Shown here in pieces: positions 34,111-59,551 of a stretch of 64,000 bases of DNA. Under the pieces are notes generated by a model that was not told the DNA's origin, did no database searches, and worked only from the letters and a program-made list of their open reading frames with translations. Each line of letters opens with the position of its first letter. Position 1 is the stretch's first letter. The position numbers and the translations under genes were made by a program. The DNA comes from a virus (taxonomy: Duplodnaviria; Heunggongvirae; Uroviricota; Caudoviricetes), in IMG/VR virus record IMGVR_UViG_3300038443_000660, positions 2,082 through 66,081 of that record. The stretch is one strand, 5' to 3'.

Positions 34111-34880
34111 TTATTATTATCTTTTTCTATGCCCAATTTCCAAGGATGTTTTGTGACATTTTCATATTTTTCTTCATCAGAATAAATATTTTTCGGATCA
34201 CCAGATGGCCCGATTCGCATATCCATATCTTCAATTAAAACTTTTACAGAATGATAAACGTGATCTTCATCCCGTCTGATTTCAAATTCTTCGTCTGTTT
34301 CGTCCTTGTTACGGATAGCCCGCCAGTTTTCCGTTTCAACTTTAATCATATCTCTGACATGATTCATGTCTCTGGACAGAATATAGGATTTCTTGATTGT
34401 CGAAACGATACCTTCATCAATGCGGCGAAGGTCCAGAACGTCACAATAAAATTCATAATCACACCCCCATATGGTCGATGCATTGAAGGCAAACGGAACA
34501 AAATGAAGATCGTCTAAGCTGATATCATAGGACTCGTCAATGTCATAATCCGAGACAGTGAACCTATGTTCTTTTCCATTAAGTTCAAAACTGTCGAAAA
34601 TGTAGCATGGAACATATGTCGAAACATTGGTGTGTTCTGCATAATATTTTGGTTCCAAATTTGAATAGTAATTTGTGAACACAATTTCATGCTTTTCAAC
34701 GTCCCAAATCTTGATATCGGAATATCTATCATTCCAGAAAGCATACCACTTTCCAGAAGCAGATTTGAACGGATAAAAATTGTTATATCGAGGTTGACCG
34801 AACTTTTCCTTGATTGGTTGAAAAAGTTCGTCAATCTTCTTAAAAGAATATCCCCAAGACGGGGATTCATAATCAGACAT
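34107..34880 (-). CDS. Hypothetical protein (257 aa)
   Basis: Start moved to ATG 34880; the upstream in-frame extension is tRNA sequence. Confidence 0.65.
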   Translation of the reverse strand: MSDYESPSWGYSFKKIDELFQPIKEKFGQPRYNNFYPFKSASGKWYAFWNDRYSDIKIWDVEKHEIVFTNYYSNLEPKYYAEHTNVSTYVPCYIFDSFELNGKEHRFTVSDYDIDESYDISLDDLHFVPFAFNASTIWGCDYEFYCDVLDLRRIDEGIVSTIKKSYILSRDMNHVRDMIKVETENWRAIRNKDETDEEFEIRRDEDHVYHSVKVLIEDMDMRIGPSGDPKNIYSDEEKYENVTKHPWKLGIEKDNNK

Positions 34881-34984: not shown

Positions 34985-35060
34985 TGGTCCGTAGTGAAGG
35001 TTCCGCCCCTTCATTTCTGACGCCACAAGCCAGCGTGTTAACTGTTATCACTAACTACGG
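34985..35060 (-). tRNA. trnH: tRNA-His(GUG), alphaproteobacterial type (no G-1, A73), atypical T-loop
   Basis: CCGTAGT/ACTACGG, A73, CCA; CTGGC-TTGTGGC-GTCAG; T-arm GAAGG-GGCGGAA-CCTTC. Confidence 0.82.
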
Positions 35061-35112: not shown

Positions 35113-35201
35113 TGGATCGAGAGGCAGGAATCGAACCTGCGCCGAGTTAACGGATACTGGTGCCAAAGGCCAGCGGCTCTACCATCGTCGCCTACTCTCG
35201 A
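35113..35201 (-). tRNA. 89-nt tRNA with long variable arm and apparent UUG (Gln) anticodon
   Basis: TCGAGAG/CTCTCGA, U73, CCA; D-arm GGC-GACGATGGTAGA-GCC; CTGGC-CTTTGGC-ACCAG; 16-nt V region with CCG/CGG stem; GCAGG-TTCGATT-CCTGC. Confidence 0.8.
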
Positions 35202-35484: not shown

Positions 35485-35690
35485 GATATAATCACCGAAT
35501 TTCCCTTGTGACCCAATGTGGCTTCCTTCTGTAATTTCACAGAAGACACGCTAGATGTAGAATCTTTGTATTCACCATCAGCATAATGAACAGTGGCCGT
35601 CATTGGCATTTTCTTGAGCCATATGATTAGTTCATAAACAGTCATTCGTTTACTTTCTGTGTCCAGTTTTAAATGCTCTCTTGGTAGCAT
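35481..35690 (-). CDS. Hypothetical protein
   Basis: 69 aa, MTVYELIIWLKKMP. Confidence 0.55.
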   Translation of the reverse strand: MLPREHLKLDTESKRMTVYELIIWLKKMPMTATVHYADGEYKDSTSSVSSVKLQKEATLGHKGNSVIIS

Positions 35691-36120
35691 CTTTCATGTT
35701 GATAAGATGTTCCAATGTGATGTTGTTTTTCTCTGCATATGCTTCGATAGCACCAATCAAATCGGATAATTCTATCAAGGCCATAACAGGGTTGTTTTGT
35801 TCAACAGAATCCATGAATTCTTCGAATTCTTCTTGAATCTTTGACGGTTCACCAAGAATACCCTTTTGGATGATTTTCTTGTGATAGCCTTGTGACTGAT
35901 TTTCCATAGCATCGTCAATCATAGAACCAAGTTGTTTCAAATCTTCTGTGTAATTTGTTGTACCAGAACTACCCGGTTCATGTGCGCCGCAGCATTCACA
36001 AATTCCTTTAATATAGCGACCTTTACGACAGAGATAACAGAGTGTCGAGTCACATGTCGTAAAAAAAGTTGCCGGATATTCGAAGCCGGGACCACCAATT
36101 TTGTTGTTATATTTTGTCAT
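35650..36120 (-). CDS. Zn-ribbon plus MazG-like all-alpha NTP pyrophosphatase
   Basis: CYLC...CECC; KIQEEFEEF.D...Q.N.VMALIELSDLIGAIEAY. Confidence 0.7.
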   Translation of the reverse strand: MTKYNNKIGGPGFEYPATFFTTCDSTLCYLCRKGRYIKGICECCGAHEPGSSGTTNYTEDLKQLGSMIDDAMENQSQGYHKKIIQKGILGEPSKIQEEFEEFMDSVEQNNPVMALIELSDLIGAIEAYAEKNNITLEHLINMKDATKRAFKTGHRK

Positions 36121-36686
36121 AGAATTGCTCTTGAAAATCTTGGTTCCGCCAATCCAGTCCCATTAATCCATGTTACAAGCTTATTTGATCGAATTCCATA
36201 GGAACCTAATTCAATTCCATTATATTCGATGTCATATCCAATATCGGTCTGAACTTTTTTCAAAAGTTCTGTCTTTGGAACATAACGGTCAAAAAACGAC
36301 ATCGCTGTATTGATAATCTGGTGTAAATTATCCTTCACATATGCGGAATTTTTATTCCAGTTAGAAGTAAAATCAAAGAAAATCAACTCGTTTTTGAGAA
36401 AATATTTTGTATGGTACATATCAAAATCATCATTACGCATACAAGGCGTAATTGTCTGATATTTACCAGATGGAAGGAATCCTTTGTTGATTAGATAAAG
36501 AAATGACTGTTCACCAGAGCCGACAAAAACTTTCTCTTTTCCATTCTTGATTACATGATGCATATGAACTTCTGGTGGAGTGGTGATATATGCAATATCT
36601 TTTGTAACCAGCCATGGTGCTTCAATAGGAGCAAACCATTCTGAATAATAATCGACGGAATCCTGTAAGAGTTTATAGTTTATCAT
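36117..36686 (-). CDS. Stand-alone class II aminoacyl-tRNA synthetase (SerRS-like) catalytic core
   Basis: Motif1 F.PIEAPW; VGSGEQ; motif2 TPCMRND...YFLKNELI; motif3 WINGTGLAEPR; no tRNA-binding arm (189 aa). Confidence 0.75.
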   Translation of the reverse strand: MINYKLLQDSVDYYSEWFAPIEAPWLVTKDIAYITTPPEVHMHHVIKNGKEKVFVGSGEQSFLYLINKGFLPSGKYQTITPCMRNDDFDMYHTKYFLKNELIFFDFTSNWNKNSAYVKDNLHQIINTAMSFFDRYVPKTELLKKVQTDIGYDIEYNGIELGSYGIRSNKLVTWINGTGLAEPRFSRAIL

Positions 36687-58384: not shown

Positions 58385-59551
58385 TTAGTTCATATGAAGT
58401 TTTTTGAATTCTTCATATTGCTTGTTCTGAAAGGTGTGTTTTCGTACCCTTCTAAGCAATGTTTCTCTTAAATCATTCCCTGCAAAAAGAGAGAAAATGA
58501 TTGGTACATCAGTATTTGTAAATTTTTGCGAAATCTCTGTGGCGAACTTTTTCTTATCACCAGAAGATAGTTTGTAAGCGGTATCGAATAATTCTCTGTA
58601 TTTGTATTCCTGATTCTGGATTGTTTCCCAGAACCATTTTTCAACTTCGTTAACTTTTTCCAAATCTTCCTTGAATAACAATCCCTTCAAGTCATCAATC
58701 TTTTCATCAATGATGGCTTGAATTATGTTTCGTTCGGACTCAGCATTCTCTTTCGAGCGATGAAATAGACAATATTCCTCGGATTTGATTTTGACCATAT
58801 GACCGGAATCAAAACGAACGACATATCCTTCAATGCTAAGTTCTTTCCGAACAGATTCAATAAAACGGGTGAAACCCTCTTTTTCAATTAAATTTCTGTT
58901 AAATGATTTTACAACTGGTATATTAAATCTGTTTCCAATTTCTTGGAAATCGAGATATTCACCAGTTAAATTACACCTTACAGCAGTAAGTAATAATGTG
59001 TCAACAGAATAATCTAATACTATTCTGTTTTTATTAGAACACCATTCGAAAATTGGAGTATATCCATTATCATAGCAGAAGAATGACAGTTTGTTATACT
59101 GTTCATTGGCGTCAGCAAAGTTATGTGCATTGATTGCAACATCGGTGATGCCCATTTTTGTCCCATAGAACAATTCGTCGCCCAATATGACAGGGCGAAC
59201 CATGGAACCATCTTCCTTAGCCAAAATCTGGTAAGGTTGCGAAAAATCTAAACTATATGCTTGTGTTTCTTCTTTTTCATTGACATTGAAGAATTTATGA
59301 AAGCTTCTGGACATGATGTCACCTTTAGGGGTGAACATCAGTCCTCGGCACTCACGTCTTAATGCTCGATACAATGATTCTTGTTCCAAAATGCCCGGTT
59401 CATTGGGATTTTCGAATGTATCTGGTTTAGAAACCACGTATTGAATGACGATGTAATCTTTTTTATCTGCTACAATGAATTCTTCTTTATCTTTGATAGC
59501 AGGAAGAACATCATCAATAGATTTGATGATGGGAAACTTATAAAAATTCAT
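58385..59551 (-). CDS. rnlA: RNA ligase 1 (T4 Rnl1/RnlA family)
   Basis: RECRGL...SRSFHKFFNVNE...KEDGSMV...IFEW...NRIVLDY...LTAVR...EGYVV...VKIKSEEY. Confidence 0.92.
   Translation of the reverse strand: MNFYKFPIIKSIDDVLPAIKDKEEFIVADKKDYIVIQYVVSKPDTFENPNEPGILEQESLYRALRRECRGLMFTPKGDIMSRSFHKFFNVNEKEETQAYSLDFSQPYQILAKEDGSMVRPVILGDELFYGTKMGITDVAINAHNFADANEQYNKLSFFCYDNGYTPIFEWCSNKNRIVLDYSVDTLLLTAVRCNLTGEYLDFQEIGNRFNIPVVKSFNRNLIEKEGFTRFIESVRKELSIEGYVVRFDSGHMVKIKSEEYCLFHRSKENAESERNIIQAIIDEKIDDLKGLLFKEDLEKVNEVEKWFWETIQNQEYKYRELFDTAYKLSSGDKKKFATEISQKFTNTDVPIIFSLFAGNDLRETLLRRVRKHTFQNKQYEEFKKLHMN

What the first reader, a model, noticed from the sequence alone, without database searches (positions are those of the whole stretch)
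35113..35201. Class II-type (long variable arm) tRNA carrying a Gln anticodon
Seen: an 89-nt cloverleaf with a Leu/Ser-style D-arm and a 16-nt variable region, but anticodon loop CT-TTG-GC, U1:A72, U73 and a C31-A39 mismatch. Known: in bacteria long V-arms are confined to Leu, Ser, Tyr and Sec tRNAs, and LeuRS and SerRS largely ignore the anticodon; U1:A72 is the GatCAB determinant of tRNA-Gln. Inference: either a Gln tRNA reshaped to evade anticodon nucleases, a missense tRNA inserting Leu or Ser at CAA/CAG, a relaxed-loop frameshifting tRNA, or the substrate of the SerRS-like core 1 kb away.
Basis: partly seen in the sequence, partly recalled or inferred. Interest (0 to 1): 0.76.

Follow-up and report, generated by a model that had tools for sequence, protein, structure and literature searches.

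The report
Phage glutamine tRNA with extra arm
A large soil phage carries a real, conserved glutamine tRNA with the extra hairpin arm normally reserved for leucine, serine and tyrosine tRNAs; dozens of unrelated phages carry the same design, which I found in no paper.

Summary
ARAGORN and Rfam call an 89-nt tRNA at 35113-35201 (-). It has anticodon UUG, U1:A72, U73, an encoded CCA, a C31/A39 mismatch and a 16-nt variable region with a 3-bp hairpin.

It is neither an error nor a decayed Leu/Ser gene. A related phage (L021) holds an ortholog at the same place, 83% identical. The anticodon, extra arm and T arm are unchanged, and three stem pairs changed on both sides. Other relatives hold either an ordinary 74-nt tRNA-Gln(UUG) or a different long-armed one in this slot.

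A pattern scan of IMG/VR gave 50 loci (36 distinct sequences) with long-armed tRNA(UUG). All have U1:A72, and most have G73, G2:C71, G10 and A37, the glutamine identity set. A control scan requiring a base other than A at 72 found two.

The Leu mark (A73) and the Ser marks (G73, C72, G2:C71, C11:G24) are absent. CAA/CAG codons align with Gln in homologs.

Best reading: a working tRNA-Gln for CAA, the phage's preferred Gln codon. The purpose of the arm is unknown. Missense, frameshift and "substrate of the neighbouring synthetase-like gene" readings are disfavoured.

This scan has noted the same kind of tRNA on other DNA. I found no published description.

The parts
35113..35201 (-). 89-nt tRNA with anticodon UUG (Gln), a class II-like variable arm, U1:A72, U73 and an encoded CCA
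   Evidence: ARAGORN; Rfam RF00005 at 40.6 bits; ortholog in L021 5720-5808 at 83% identity with compensatory changes; family covariation
35164..35166 (-). Anticodon UUG, inside the loop C-U-UUG-G-C (G37, C38)
   Evidence: ARAGORN places the anticodon at tRNA positions 36-38. UUG is unchanged in the ortholog L021 and in the syntenic tRNAs of L010, L015, L017, L018 and L022
35141..35156 (-). 16-nt variable region: three unpaired bases, a CCG/CGG stem with the loop UUAACU, then one unpaired base
   Evidence: ARAGORN structure and the minimum-free-energy fold. Stem and loop are identical in L021. A low-depth soil contig shows two small changes placed in the arm's loop
35213..35241 (-). Promoter-like TTGACA, 17-nt spacer, TATAAA, ending 11 nt before the tRNA 5' end
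   Evidence: Read directly from the sequence. The consensus scanner does not list it because its rule needs T at the last -10 position, so this is a sequence reading and not a tool call
34985..35060 (-). tRNA-His(GUG), the next gene in the same cluster
   Evidence: ARAGORN and Rfam at 40.5 bits. The order UUG tRNA then His recurs in L010, L017, L018 and L021
34903..34978 (-). tRNA-Ala(UGC) with G3:U70, the last gene of the cluster
   Evidence: ARAGORN
34850..34866 (-). Terminator-like hairpin followed by a T-rich tail, downstream of the three tRNAs
   Evidence: Consensus scan; a pattern match only

Best explanation
This is a working elongator tRNA-Gln(UUG) of a 242-kb T4-like soil phage, built on a class II-like body.

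Shown: it is a conserved tRNA gene under purifying selection. Its anticodon and its U1:A72 pair are fixed. It belongs to a large, mostly phage-borne set of tRNA-Gln genes with a hairpin in the variable region.

Inferred: it is transcribed with tRNA-His and tRNA-Ala from its own promoter-like site and trimmed to an 89-nt RNA that already ends in CCA. The host charges it as glutamine through the anticodon U34-U35-G36 and U1:A72. That would be done either by GlnRS or, if the host is an alphaproteobacterium without GlnRS, by non-discriminating GluRS followed by GatCAB. It then reads CAA, and CAG by wobble. CAA is the Gln codon this phage prefers two to one.

The extra arm is an add-on, gained either by insertion into a tRNA-Gln or by remoulding of a tRNA-Leu; which route this lineage took is open. 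I do not think the arm changes which amino acid is carried. Its most likely use is to make the phage's tRNA-Gln look different from the host's to some host factor, such as a tRNA-cutting defence nuclease. That is a guess with perhaps 30% odds. A tolerated neutral insertion is the alternative.
For: 1. It is a real tRNA.

2. An ortholog lies in L021, a relative whose neighbouring protein is only 49% identical. The two tRNAs are 83% identical with 15 differences. Pairs 4:69, 5:68 and 28:42 changed on both sides, while UUG, the extra arm, the T arm, U73 and CCA are unchanged.

3. In the four-member family (window, L021, and two tRNAs in L161), 10 of 21 pairs show double changes, and U1:A72 is invariant.

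4. The slot after the synthetase-like and MazG-like genes always holds a UUG tRNA with U1:A72. It is long in the window, L021, L010/L011 and L015, and an ordinary 74 nt in L017, L018 and L022.

5. The IMG/VR scan gave 50 loci and 36 distinct long tRNA(UUG). All 36 have U1:A72; 26 have G2:C71, 33 have G10, 23 have G73 and 31 have A37. These are the bacterial Gln identity elements listed in PMC9976931. The control scan with 72 not A found only 2.

6. Seven long-armed tRNA-Pro(UGG) keep Pro's C1:G72 and A73. Extra-arm tRNAs therefore keep the acceptor marks that match their own anticodon.

7. The L146-type tRNA differs from the tRNA-Leu(UAG) of Erwinia phage Hena1 at 1:72, 73, 35 and 37, the positions that exchange Leu marks for Gln marks, besides ordinary divergence elsewhere.

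8. The window tRNA's nearest neighbours among 1193 phage tRNAs are mostly long tRNA-Gln genes.

9. CAA occurs 1204 times and CAG 593 times in the phage's ORFs. Both codons align mostly with Q in homologs, and neither L nor S is among the top six residues.

10. The phage encodes no GluRS, GlnRS or GatB, so charging must be done by the host.
Against: - No RNA or charging data exist. The only sequencing runs that hold this DNA are soil and rhizosphere DNA runs.
- The window copy departs from the E. coli-type GlnRS set at four places: U73, C2:G71, G37 and C38.
- Its anticodon stem has only four pairs.
- The phage also has a class I tRNA-Gln(UUG) elsewhere in its genome (c[122980,123053]), so this copy is not strictly needed. 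That second copy has acceptor mismatches and no encoded CCA.
- The host, and therefore its Gln charging route, is not known.
- Nothing here tests what the arm is for.
Confidence: 0.7

Rival explanations
1. It is a missense tRNA. The extra arm makes SerRS, LeuRS or TyrRS charge it, so that Ser, Leu or Tyr is inserted at CAA/CAG at a low level, as nematode nev-tRNAs do with Leu.
For: It has a class II-like architecture with a D loop ending GGUAGA, as in tRNA-Leu. LeuRS and SerRS do not read the anticodon (PMC3333845; PMC7609411). One family of long tRNA(UUG) descends from tRNA-Leu(UAG). A low level of misincorporation would not show in the codon-column test.
Against: - A73 is the conserved Leu determinant and is kept in all 115 nev-tRNAs. 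It is U here, and G, A or U in the wider set.
- The Ser marks G73, C72, G2:C71 and C11:G24 are all absent, and the arm has only 3 bp.
- For Tyr, A73 and G34 are absent.
- U1:A72 is kept in 36 of 36 distinct sequences plus the four in this clade. A Leu or Ser tRNA has no need for it.
- CAA/CAG columns align with Q, not with L or S.
Confidence: 0.1
2. It has no decoding role. It is a tRNA-like decoy or sponge that soaks up a host tRNA-directed nuclease, sensor or modification enzyme, or has some other regulatory use, and is charged poorly or not at all.
For: - It is redundant with a class I tRNA-Gln(UUG) in the same genome, and canonical/long pairs occur side by side in L161.
- The phage carries an Rnl1-type RNA ligase. 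By analogy with T4 Rnl1 (my knowledge, not tested here), this hints that tRNA breakage matters to this phage.
- Phage tRNAs are known to counter tRNA-cutting defences (PMC10264068, PMC11555353 and PMC13096335).
Against: All the features needed for charging and decoding are conserved: the paired acceptor stem, U1:A72, the encoded CCA, U33, the UUG anticodon and the T loop UUCGAUU. A pure decoy would not need an invariant 1:72 pair or isotype-matched identity marks across 36 sequences.
Confidence: 0.1
3. It is the dedicated substrate of the 189-aa synthetase-like protein encoded 0.9 kb upstream (36117-36686, minus strand), which loads it with a non-standard residue.
For: The two genes are close in the window and in L021, L010 and L015. 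The protein is a class II synthetase core: it matches phrog_4806, its profile hits SerRS cores weakly in the PDB at E = 1.8e-4, and some homologs carry precomputed PF00152 hits.
Against: - The same gene sits beside ordinary 74-nt tRNA-Gln genes in L017, L018 and L022.
- Only 24 of the 90 loci that hold it have any tRNA within the flanks fetched.
- No homolog lies within the 50 long tRNA-Gln loci.
- Two complete phage genomes with a long tRNA-Gln, G004 and G005, lack it altogether.
- The protein has no tRNA-binding arm.
Confidence: 0.04
4. It is a decayed copy, an assembly error, or a frameshift-prone tRNA with a relaxed 9-nt anticodon loop.
For: The C31/A39 mismatch leaves four anticodon-stem pairs. 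The fold energy of the single sequence is unremarkable.
Against: - The identical sequence is present in contigs from several soil and rhizosphere runs.
- The ortholog pairs 31:39 as C:G and has a plain 7-nt loop.
- Compensatory changes and the conserved anticodon show selection.
- Anticodon stems with one mismatch are common among the UUG tRNAs of this clade.
Confidence: 0.03

Closest known systems
Canonical bacterial and phage tRNA-Gln(UUG), class I, 74-77 nt
   Same: Both have anticodon UUG with U33, U1:A72, G3:C70, G10, a 7/5 acceptor/T arrangement and a standard T loop. The window tRNA occupies the same genomic slot as ordinary tRNA-Gln(UUG) genes in related phages. The L172-type long form aligns end to end with annotated tRNA-Gln genes of Klebsiella and Aeromonas phages, apart from a 14-nt gap at the variable region.
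   Different: The variable region is 16 nt with a hairpin, instead of 4-5 nt. The discriminator is U73 instead of G73. Pair 2:71 is C:G. Position 37 is G, although the ortholog has A37. Position 38 is C. The D arm has three pairs plus G13/A22 and a long loop.
Bacterial class II tRNAs (Leu, Ser, Tyr, Sec)
   Same: Both have a long variable region that forms a hairpin, and the D loop ends GGUAGA as in tRNA-Leu. One sister family, the L146 type, is a tRNA-Leu(UAG) body.
   Different: The anticodon belongs to a class I isotype. A73 (Leu, Tyr) is absent, as are G73, C72, G2:C71 and C11:G24 (Ser). The arm is short at 3 bp. The 8/5 acceptor/T arrangement of tRNA-Sec is not present.
Nematode nev-tRNAs (class II tRNAs with Gly or Ile anticodons that are charged with Leu; PMC3333845)
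   Same: Both are class II-like tRNAs whose anticodon is neither Leu, Ser nor Tyr. Both are conserved within a lineage, and both are possibly derived from tRNA-Leu.
   Different: All 115 nev-tRNAs keep the Leu determinant A73, and they are leucylated. The phage tRNA has lost A73 and carries the Gln mark U1:A72, which points to cognate charging.
allo-tRNAs with 8/4 or 9/3 acceptor/T arrangements (Mukai et al., PMC5389517)
   Same: They are non-canonical tRNAs with long variable arms and varied anticodons, some of them in alphaproteobacterial phage tRNA clusters next to a tRNA-His that lacks G-1.
   Different: The window tRNA has the normal 7/5 arrangement, and nothing points to SerRS recognition.
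Phage tRNAs that escape tRNA-targeting defences (T5 and T4-like phages; PMC10264068, PMC11555353, PMC13096335)
   Same: Both are phage-encoded copies of host-type tRNAs that differ in structure from the host version. A defence nuclease that cuts in the variable loop is known (Septu on tRNA-Tyr).
   Different: The changes described in those papers are anticodon-loop substitutions or overexpression, not an added arm. No nuclease specific for tRNA-Gln is known to me, and no escape was tested here.

Membership tests
tRNA (Rfam RF00005) | Cloverleaf that scores above the family's gathering score | tested here: met
   40.6 bits against a cut-off of 29. ARAGORN gives a full cloverleaf.
Bacterial tRNA-Gln (GlnRS identity set, PMC9976931) | Anticodon U34, U35, G36 | tested here: met
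   UUG at 35164-35166 (-), conserved in the ortholog and in syntenic relatives.
Bacterial tRNA-Gln (GlnRS identity set, PMC9976931) | U1:A72, G3:C70 and G10 | tested here: met
   All three are present. U1:A72 is invariant in the four-member family and in 36 of 36 long UUG tRNAs.
Bacterial tRNA-Gln (GlnRS identity set, PMC9976931) | G73, G2:C71, A37 and U38 | tested here: not met
   The window copy has U73, C2:G71, G37 and C38. The ortholog has A37. Most other long UUG tRNAs have G73, G2:C71 and A37.
Substrate of the indirect route (non-discriminating GluRS plus GatCAB) | U1:A72, which the amidotransferase and GluRS2 rely on (PMC9976931) | tested here: met
   U1:A72 is present and invariant.
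Substrate of the indirect route (non-discriminating GluRS plus GatCAB) | The host uses this route (it lacks GlnRS) | not testable with these tools
   The host is unknown. Hints of an alphaproteobacterial host come from a tRNA-His without G-1 and from the nearest named phage relatives. The phage itself has no GluRS, GlnRS or GatB.
tRNA-Leu | Discriminator A73 (conserved in all domains of life) | tested here: not met
   U73 in the window and in L021.
tRNA-Leu | Large variable region and a Leu-type D loop (A20a) | tested here: inconclusive
   A 16-nt variable region and a D loop ending GGUAGA are present. However, AAUGGUAG-type D loops occur in many isotypes of these phages.
tRNA-Ser | G73, C72, G2:C71, C11:G24 and a long variable arm | tested here: not met
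   The window copy has U73, A72, C2:G71 and G11:C24, and an arm of only 3 bp.
Bacterial tRNA-Tyr | A73, G34 and U35 | tested here: not met
   The window copy has U73 and U34; only U35 fits.
allo-tRNA / tRNA-Sec-like | Acceptor/T arrangement of 8/4, 9/3 or 8/5 | tested here: not met
   The acceptor stem has 7 bp and the T stem 5 bp. U8 cannot extend the acceptor stem.
Phage 'extra-arm' class I tRNAs (unpublished kind seen by this scan) | A class I anticodon with matching acceptor marks plus a hairpin in the variable region, conserved in phages | tested here: met
   Shown. Earlier scan notes describe the same kind on other DNA.

The most novel reading that the evidence does not exclude
The extra arm is a selected counter-defence or specificity device. 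Grafting a class II-style hairpin onto tRNA-Gln (and onto Lys, Pro, Cys, Glu and others) would give phages a private pool of correctly charged tRNAs. A host tRNA-directed nuclease, toxin or modification enzyme would no longer recognise them, or a phage factor would recognise them selectively. The canonical/long pairs seen in several phages would then be insurance against such attacks.
Probability: 0.3. Interest if true: 0.85.

Novelty: new variant of a known kind. Interest (0 to 1): 0.62.

Why it matters
Textbooks and reviews state that long variable arms in bacteria belong only to Leu, Ser, Tyr and Sec tRNAs, and that the arm is itself an identity mark for SerRS and LeuRS. Here a tRNA-Gln carries such an arm while keeping glutamine's own identity marks, and dozens of unrelated phages do the same.

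If these tRNAs are charged correctly, three things follow:
- The class I/class II split is more plastic than taught.
- GlnRS or GluRS/GatCAB, EF-Tu and the ribosome tolerate the arm.
- Phages have a reason to build structurally distinct copies of ordinary tRNAs.

This gives a concrete and cheap experimental handle on what the arm does. It also bears on annotation, because tRNA finders label these genes by anticodon without comment. And it bears on tRNA engineering, as a natural example of a hairpin-tagged class I tRNA.

Tried and rejected
- **BLAST searches of the phage collection.** Megablast and blastn of the tRNA and its surroundings found no homolog. The one partial hit, H78, is not a tRNA.
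- **First IMG/VR pattern.** It was built on the anticodon stem and found nothing, because that stem is the most variable part.
- **Close-relative search with the single synthetase-like protein.** It found nothing in IMG/VR. An alignment-based search did work.
- **The single metagenome-collection scan.** Its pattern was too loose, and all 21 hits are GC-rich coding DNA. No further orthologs came from it.
- **Relative G002 (153 kb).** It has only five tRNAs, none of them long. The ortholog lies on another contig from the same sample (L021).
- **Sequencing runs.** No RNA holder is listed. All holders are soil or rhizosphere DNA runs, so expression could not be examined. Laying contigs showed one low-depth variant, with a base change and a 1-nt insertion that I place in the arm's loop, which is too weak to use. 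Run X8 laid nothing.
- **glnS control search.** It did not tell me which control genomes have GlnRS, so the host route stays open.
- **'Decoy anticodon' idea.** Earlier scan notes proposed that the extra arm copies a Gln anticodon loop. This does not apply here. The arm's loop is UUAACU, and in the wider set 14 loops are GNRA and one is UUCG.
- **Class I synthetase idea.** I considered that only substrates of class I synthetases gain arms. I dropped it because long Pro, Lys, Gly and Thr tRNAs occur too.
- **Not run.** tRNAscan-SE isotype models were not available, and no structure or complex prediction was attempted.

Full report
**The observation.** The window is bases 2082-66081 of a 242,456-bp IMG/VR phage record with direct terminal repeats and 38% G+C. 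At 35113-35201 on the minus strand ARAGORN calls an 89-nt tRNA-Gln(ttg). Rfam's tRNA model scores it at 40.6 bits against a cut-off of 29.
- U1:A72, U73 and an encoded CCA;
- a D arm with three pairs plus G13/A22 and a loop ending GGUAGA;
- an anticodon stem of four pairs with a C31/A39 mismatch;
- the loop C-U-UUG-G-C;
- a 16-nt variable region with a CCG/CGG stem and a 6-nt loop.

The minimum-free-energy fold reproduces the four-armed shape plus the extra hairpin. Its energy is not unusual for the composition (z = -0.73), so the argument must rest on comparison with other sequences.

**Setting.** The tRNA is the first of three (Gln-like, His, Ala). They follow a TTGACA-17-TATAAA promoter-like site at 35241-35213 and precede a terminator-like hairpin. 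Upstream lie a MazG-like gene and a 189-aa class II synthetase-like gene (phrog_4806). The synthetase-like gene has more than a thousand homologs in large phages, and its profile hits SerRS cores only weakly (E = 1.8e-4). Downstream lie a HAD-family hydrolase gene, then the NMN adenylyltransferase-Nudix and nicotinamide phosphoribosyltransferase genes.

The large terminase is T4-like. Its nearest named relative is an Ochrobactrum phage at 49% identity. All runs that hold the DNA are soil or rhizosphere metagenomes.

The genome has 24 ARAGORN tRNAs. They include normal Leu and Ser class II tRNAs, and a class I tRNA-Gln(UUG) with acceptor mismatches and no encoded CCA. Other tRNAs have oddly long variable regions: Lys UUU at 87 nt, Thr UGU at 83 nt and Ile UAU at 92 nt.

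**Relatives.** BLAST with the tRNA found nothing. I therefore followed the neighbouring synthetase-like protein into the large protein collection, fetched the contigs that encode its closest homologs, and searched IMG/VR with an alignment of them. ARAGORN on these loci gave the key result.

The slot downstream of the synthetase-like and MazG-like genes always holds a tRNA with anticodon UUG and U1:A72. It is usually followed by tRNA-His and tRNA-Gln(CUG).
- In L017, L018 and L022 it is an ordinary 74-nt tRNA-Gln.
- In L010/L011 it is 86 nt, with a 3-bp arm capped by GCAA.
- In L015 it is 90 nt, with a 5-bp arm.
- In L021 it is an 89-nt ortholog of the window tRNA.

The window and L021 copies are 83% identical, although the neighbouring protein is only 49% identical. 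Of their 15 differences, three pairs (4:69, 5:68 and 28:42) changed on both sides and still pair. The anticodon, the arm's stem and loop, the T arm, U73 and CCA are all unchanged. L021 pairs 31:39 and has a plain 7-nt loop, CUUUGAA.

Adding two further family members from L161, a long UUG and a long CUG tRNA with the same D arm, gives 10 of 21 pairs with double changes. In that set 91.7% of cells are paired against 37-54% in the slid controls, and U1:A72 is invariant.

They do not.

**How widespread it is.** Of 116 new loci, 50 hold an 84-91-nt tRNA with anticodon UUG, giving 36 distinct sequences. Among the 36:
- all begin with U opposite the required A72;
- 26 have G2:C71, 19 have G3:C70, 33 have G10 and 31 have A37;
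- the discriminator is G in 23, A in 9 and U in 4;
- the variable regions are 13-20 nt, mostly 3-5-bp hairpins, with 14 GNRA loops and one UUCG loop.

These acceptor and anticodon-loop features are the bacterial glutamine identity set tabulated in PMC9976931.

A control scan that required any base but A at 72 found only two long UUG tRNAs in 120 loci. It did find seven long-armed tRNA-Pro(UGG), each with Pro's own C1:G72 and A73. Extra-arm tRNAs therefore keep the acceptor marks of the amino acid that their anticodon specifies.

The same A72 pattern on one genome per prokaryote species gave a single long tRNA-Gln in 120 rows. In the flanks of the viral hits, other class I isotypes are only rarely long.

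**Origins.** At least two routes exist. The L172 type aligns over its whole length with annotated class I tRNA-Gln genes of Klebsiella and Aeromonas phages, apart from a 14-nt gap at the variable region, so it is an insertion. The L146 type aligns without a length difference to annotated tRNA-Leu genes. Against the tRNA-Leu(UAG) of Erwinia phage Hena1, its identity positions read G1:C72 to U1:A72, A73 to G73, A35 to U and G37 to A. Leu marks have been exchanged for Gln marks on a Leu body, alongside ordinary divergence elsewhere.

The window tRNA has a Leu-like D loop and G37, so it may have come by the second route. Even so, its nearest neighbours by overall identity are mostly long tRNA-Gln genes, not Leu or Ser. 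I leave its origin open.

**What it does.** The phage prefers CAA (1204 codons) over CAG (593) and has no tRNA(CUG). CAA and CAG codons in 54 phage ORFs align chiefly with Gln in homologs (35-39%), followed by Lys and Glu. Leu and Ser are not among the top six residues. There is therefore no codon reassignment.

The phage encodes no GluRS, GlnRS or GatB, so host enzymes must charge the tRNA. The anticodon and U1:A72 fit GlnRS in part, but U73, C2:G71, G37 and C38 do not. They fit the indirect route well, because GluRS2 and the amidotransferase rely on U1:A72 (PMC9976931).

The free variation of N73 among the Gln tRNAs of this clade also suggests, by my inference, a host enzyme that does not read the discriminator. 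An alphaproteobacterial host is hinted at by the neighbouring tRNA-His, which lacks G-1 and has A73. PMC5389517 ties that trait to a group of alphaproteobacteria and their phages. The host is not established.

**Rivals.**
- *Leu, Ser or Tyr charging* is unlikely. A73 is absent, as are G73, C72, G2:C71 and C11:G24, and the arm has only three pairs. In contrast, nematode nev-tRNAs, which are leucylated, keep A73 in all 115 genes.
- *The frameshift idea* depended on an unpaired 31:39, and the ortholog pairs it.
- *The link to the synthetase-like gene* is local synteny only. The gene also sits beside ordinary tRNA-Gln genes, is absent near the 50 other long tRNA-Gln genes, and is missing from two complete phages that have one.
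- *A decoy role* cannot be excluded, but it would not explain why every feature needed for charging and decoding is conserved.

**What the arm is for.** This is not shown. Phage tRNAs are known to counter tRNA-cutting defences (PMC10264068, PMC11555353), and one defence system cuts in the variable loop of tRNA-Tyr (PMC13096335). This phage carries an Rnl1-type RNA ligase, and several phages keep a canonical and a long copy side by side. These points make a counter-defence role plausible. I put it at about 30%. A tolerated insertion is the alternative.

**Novelty.** Reviews of tRNA identity and of non-canonical tRNAs restrict long arms in bacteria to Leu, Ser, Tyr and Sec, and do not mention phage exceptions. 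My literature searches found no description. Earlier notes of this same scan report extra-arm class I tRNAs on other phage DNA, and they too found no paper. I treated those notes as leads and re-derived the pattern independently here.

My verdict is that this is a real, selected tRNA-Gln with a class II-style arm. It is a new variant of a known kind, interesting to tRNA and phage-defence specialists, with charging and the arm's purpose still to be tested.

Noticed in passing
window 34985-35060 (-): The tRNA-His(GUG) has no encoded G-1 (U precedes C1), has A73, has the T loop GGCGGAA instead of UUCGAAU, and has no GG in its D loop. Relatives also have A73 or U73 tRNA-His genes.
   Followed up: partly
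window 36117-36686 (-) and 35650-36120 (-): A 189-aa class II synthetase core without a tRNA-binding arm (phrog_4806; weak SerRS-core and PF00152 similarity) lies next to a MazG-like gene. It has more than 1000 homologs at E <= 1e-10 in large phages, and its function is unknown.
   Followed up: partly
genome G000:C1 c[119648,119734], c[82864,82946] and c[125529,125620] (outside the window): The same phage has a tRNA-Lys(UUU) of 87 nt with a variable-arm hairpin and U73, a tRNA-Thr(UGU) of 83 nt with a 12-nt variable loop, and a 92-nt tRNA with anticodon UAU, a 5-bp variable arm and a 6-bp anticodon stem. Similar 92-95-nt UAU tRNAs recur in L019, L172, L292 and L339.
   Followed up: partly
genome G000:C1 c[122980,123053] (outside the window): A second, class I tRNA-Gln(UUG) scores well with Rfam (54.8 bits) but has two acceptor-stem mismatches and no encoded CCA, unlike nearly all other tRNAs of this phage.
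   Followed up: no
L237, L238, L257, L269, L288, L289, L323 (IMG/VR loci): Seven tRNA-Pro(UGG) genes of 85-90 nt have long variable regions, several of them hairpins, and keep C1:G72 and A73.
   Followed up: partly
L146 4199-4283, and the same sequence family in L154, L162, L186, L194, L198, L200 and L208: An 85-nt tRNA(UUG) shares its body with the tRNA-Leu(UAG) of Erwinia phage Hena1. Its identity positions (1:72, 73, 35, 37) have switched to the Gln marks. This looks like alloacceptor remoulding from Leu to Gln in phages.
   Followed up: yes
L161 347-1011 (IMGVR_UViG_3300042433_000146): Canonical 74-nt and long-armed 88-90-nt copies of both tRNA-Gln isoacceptors (UUG and CUG) sit side by side in one cluster. 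ARAGORN mislabels the long UUG copy as Phe(gaa).
   Followed up: partly
L010, L017, L018, L021, L022 and the window tRNA: The UUG isoacceptors of this phage clade nearly all have one mismatch in the anticodon stem (at 27:43, 30:40 or 31:39), while the neighbouring CUG isoacceptors have five clean pairs. A 2026 paper links four-pair anticodon stems to relaxed decoding (PMC13092985).
   Followed up: no
window 58385-59551 (-): An Rnl1-type RNA ligase gene (phrog_562, the T4 RnlA family). By analogy with T4 Rnl1 (my knowledge), this suggests the phage may repair cut tRNAs.
   Followed up: no
L010 18939-19022; L060 707-791; L066 7854-7941 and 8407-8492; L068 400-484: Extra-arm versions of Cys(GCA), Gly(UCC), Val(UAC) and Glu(UUC) tRNAs occur in other large phages. 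Several are capped by UUCG, GAAA or GCAA tetraloops.
   Followed up: partly
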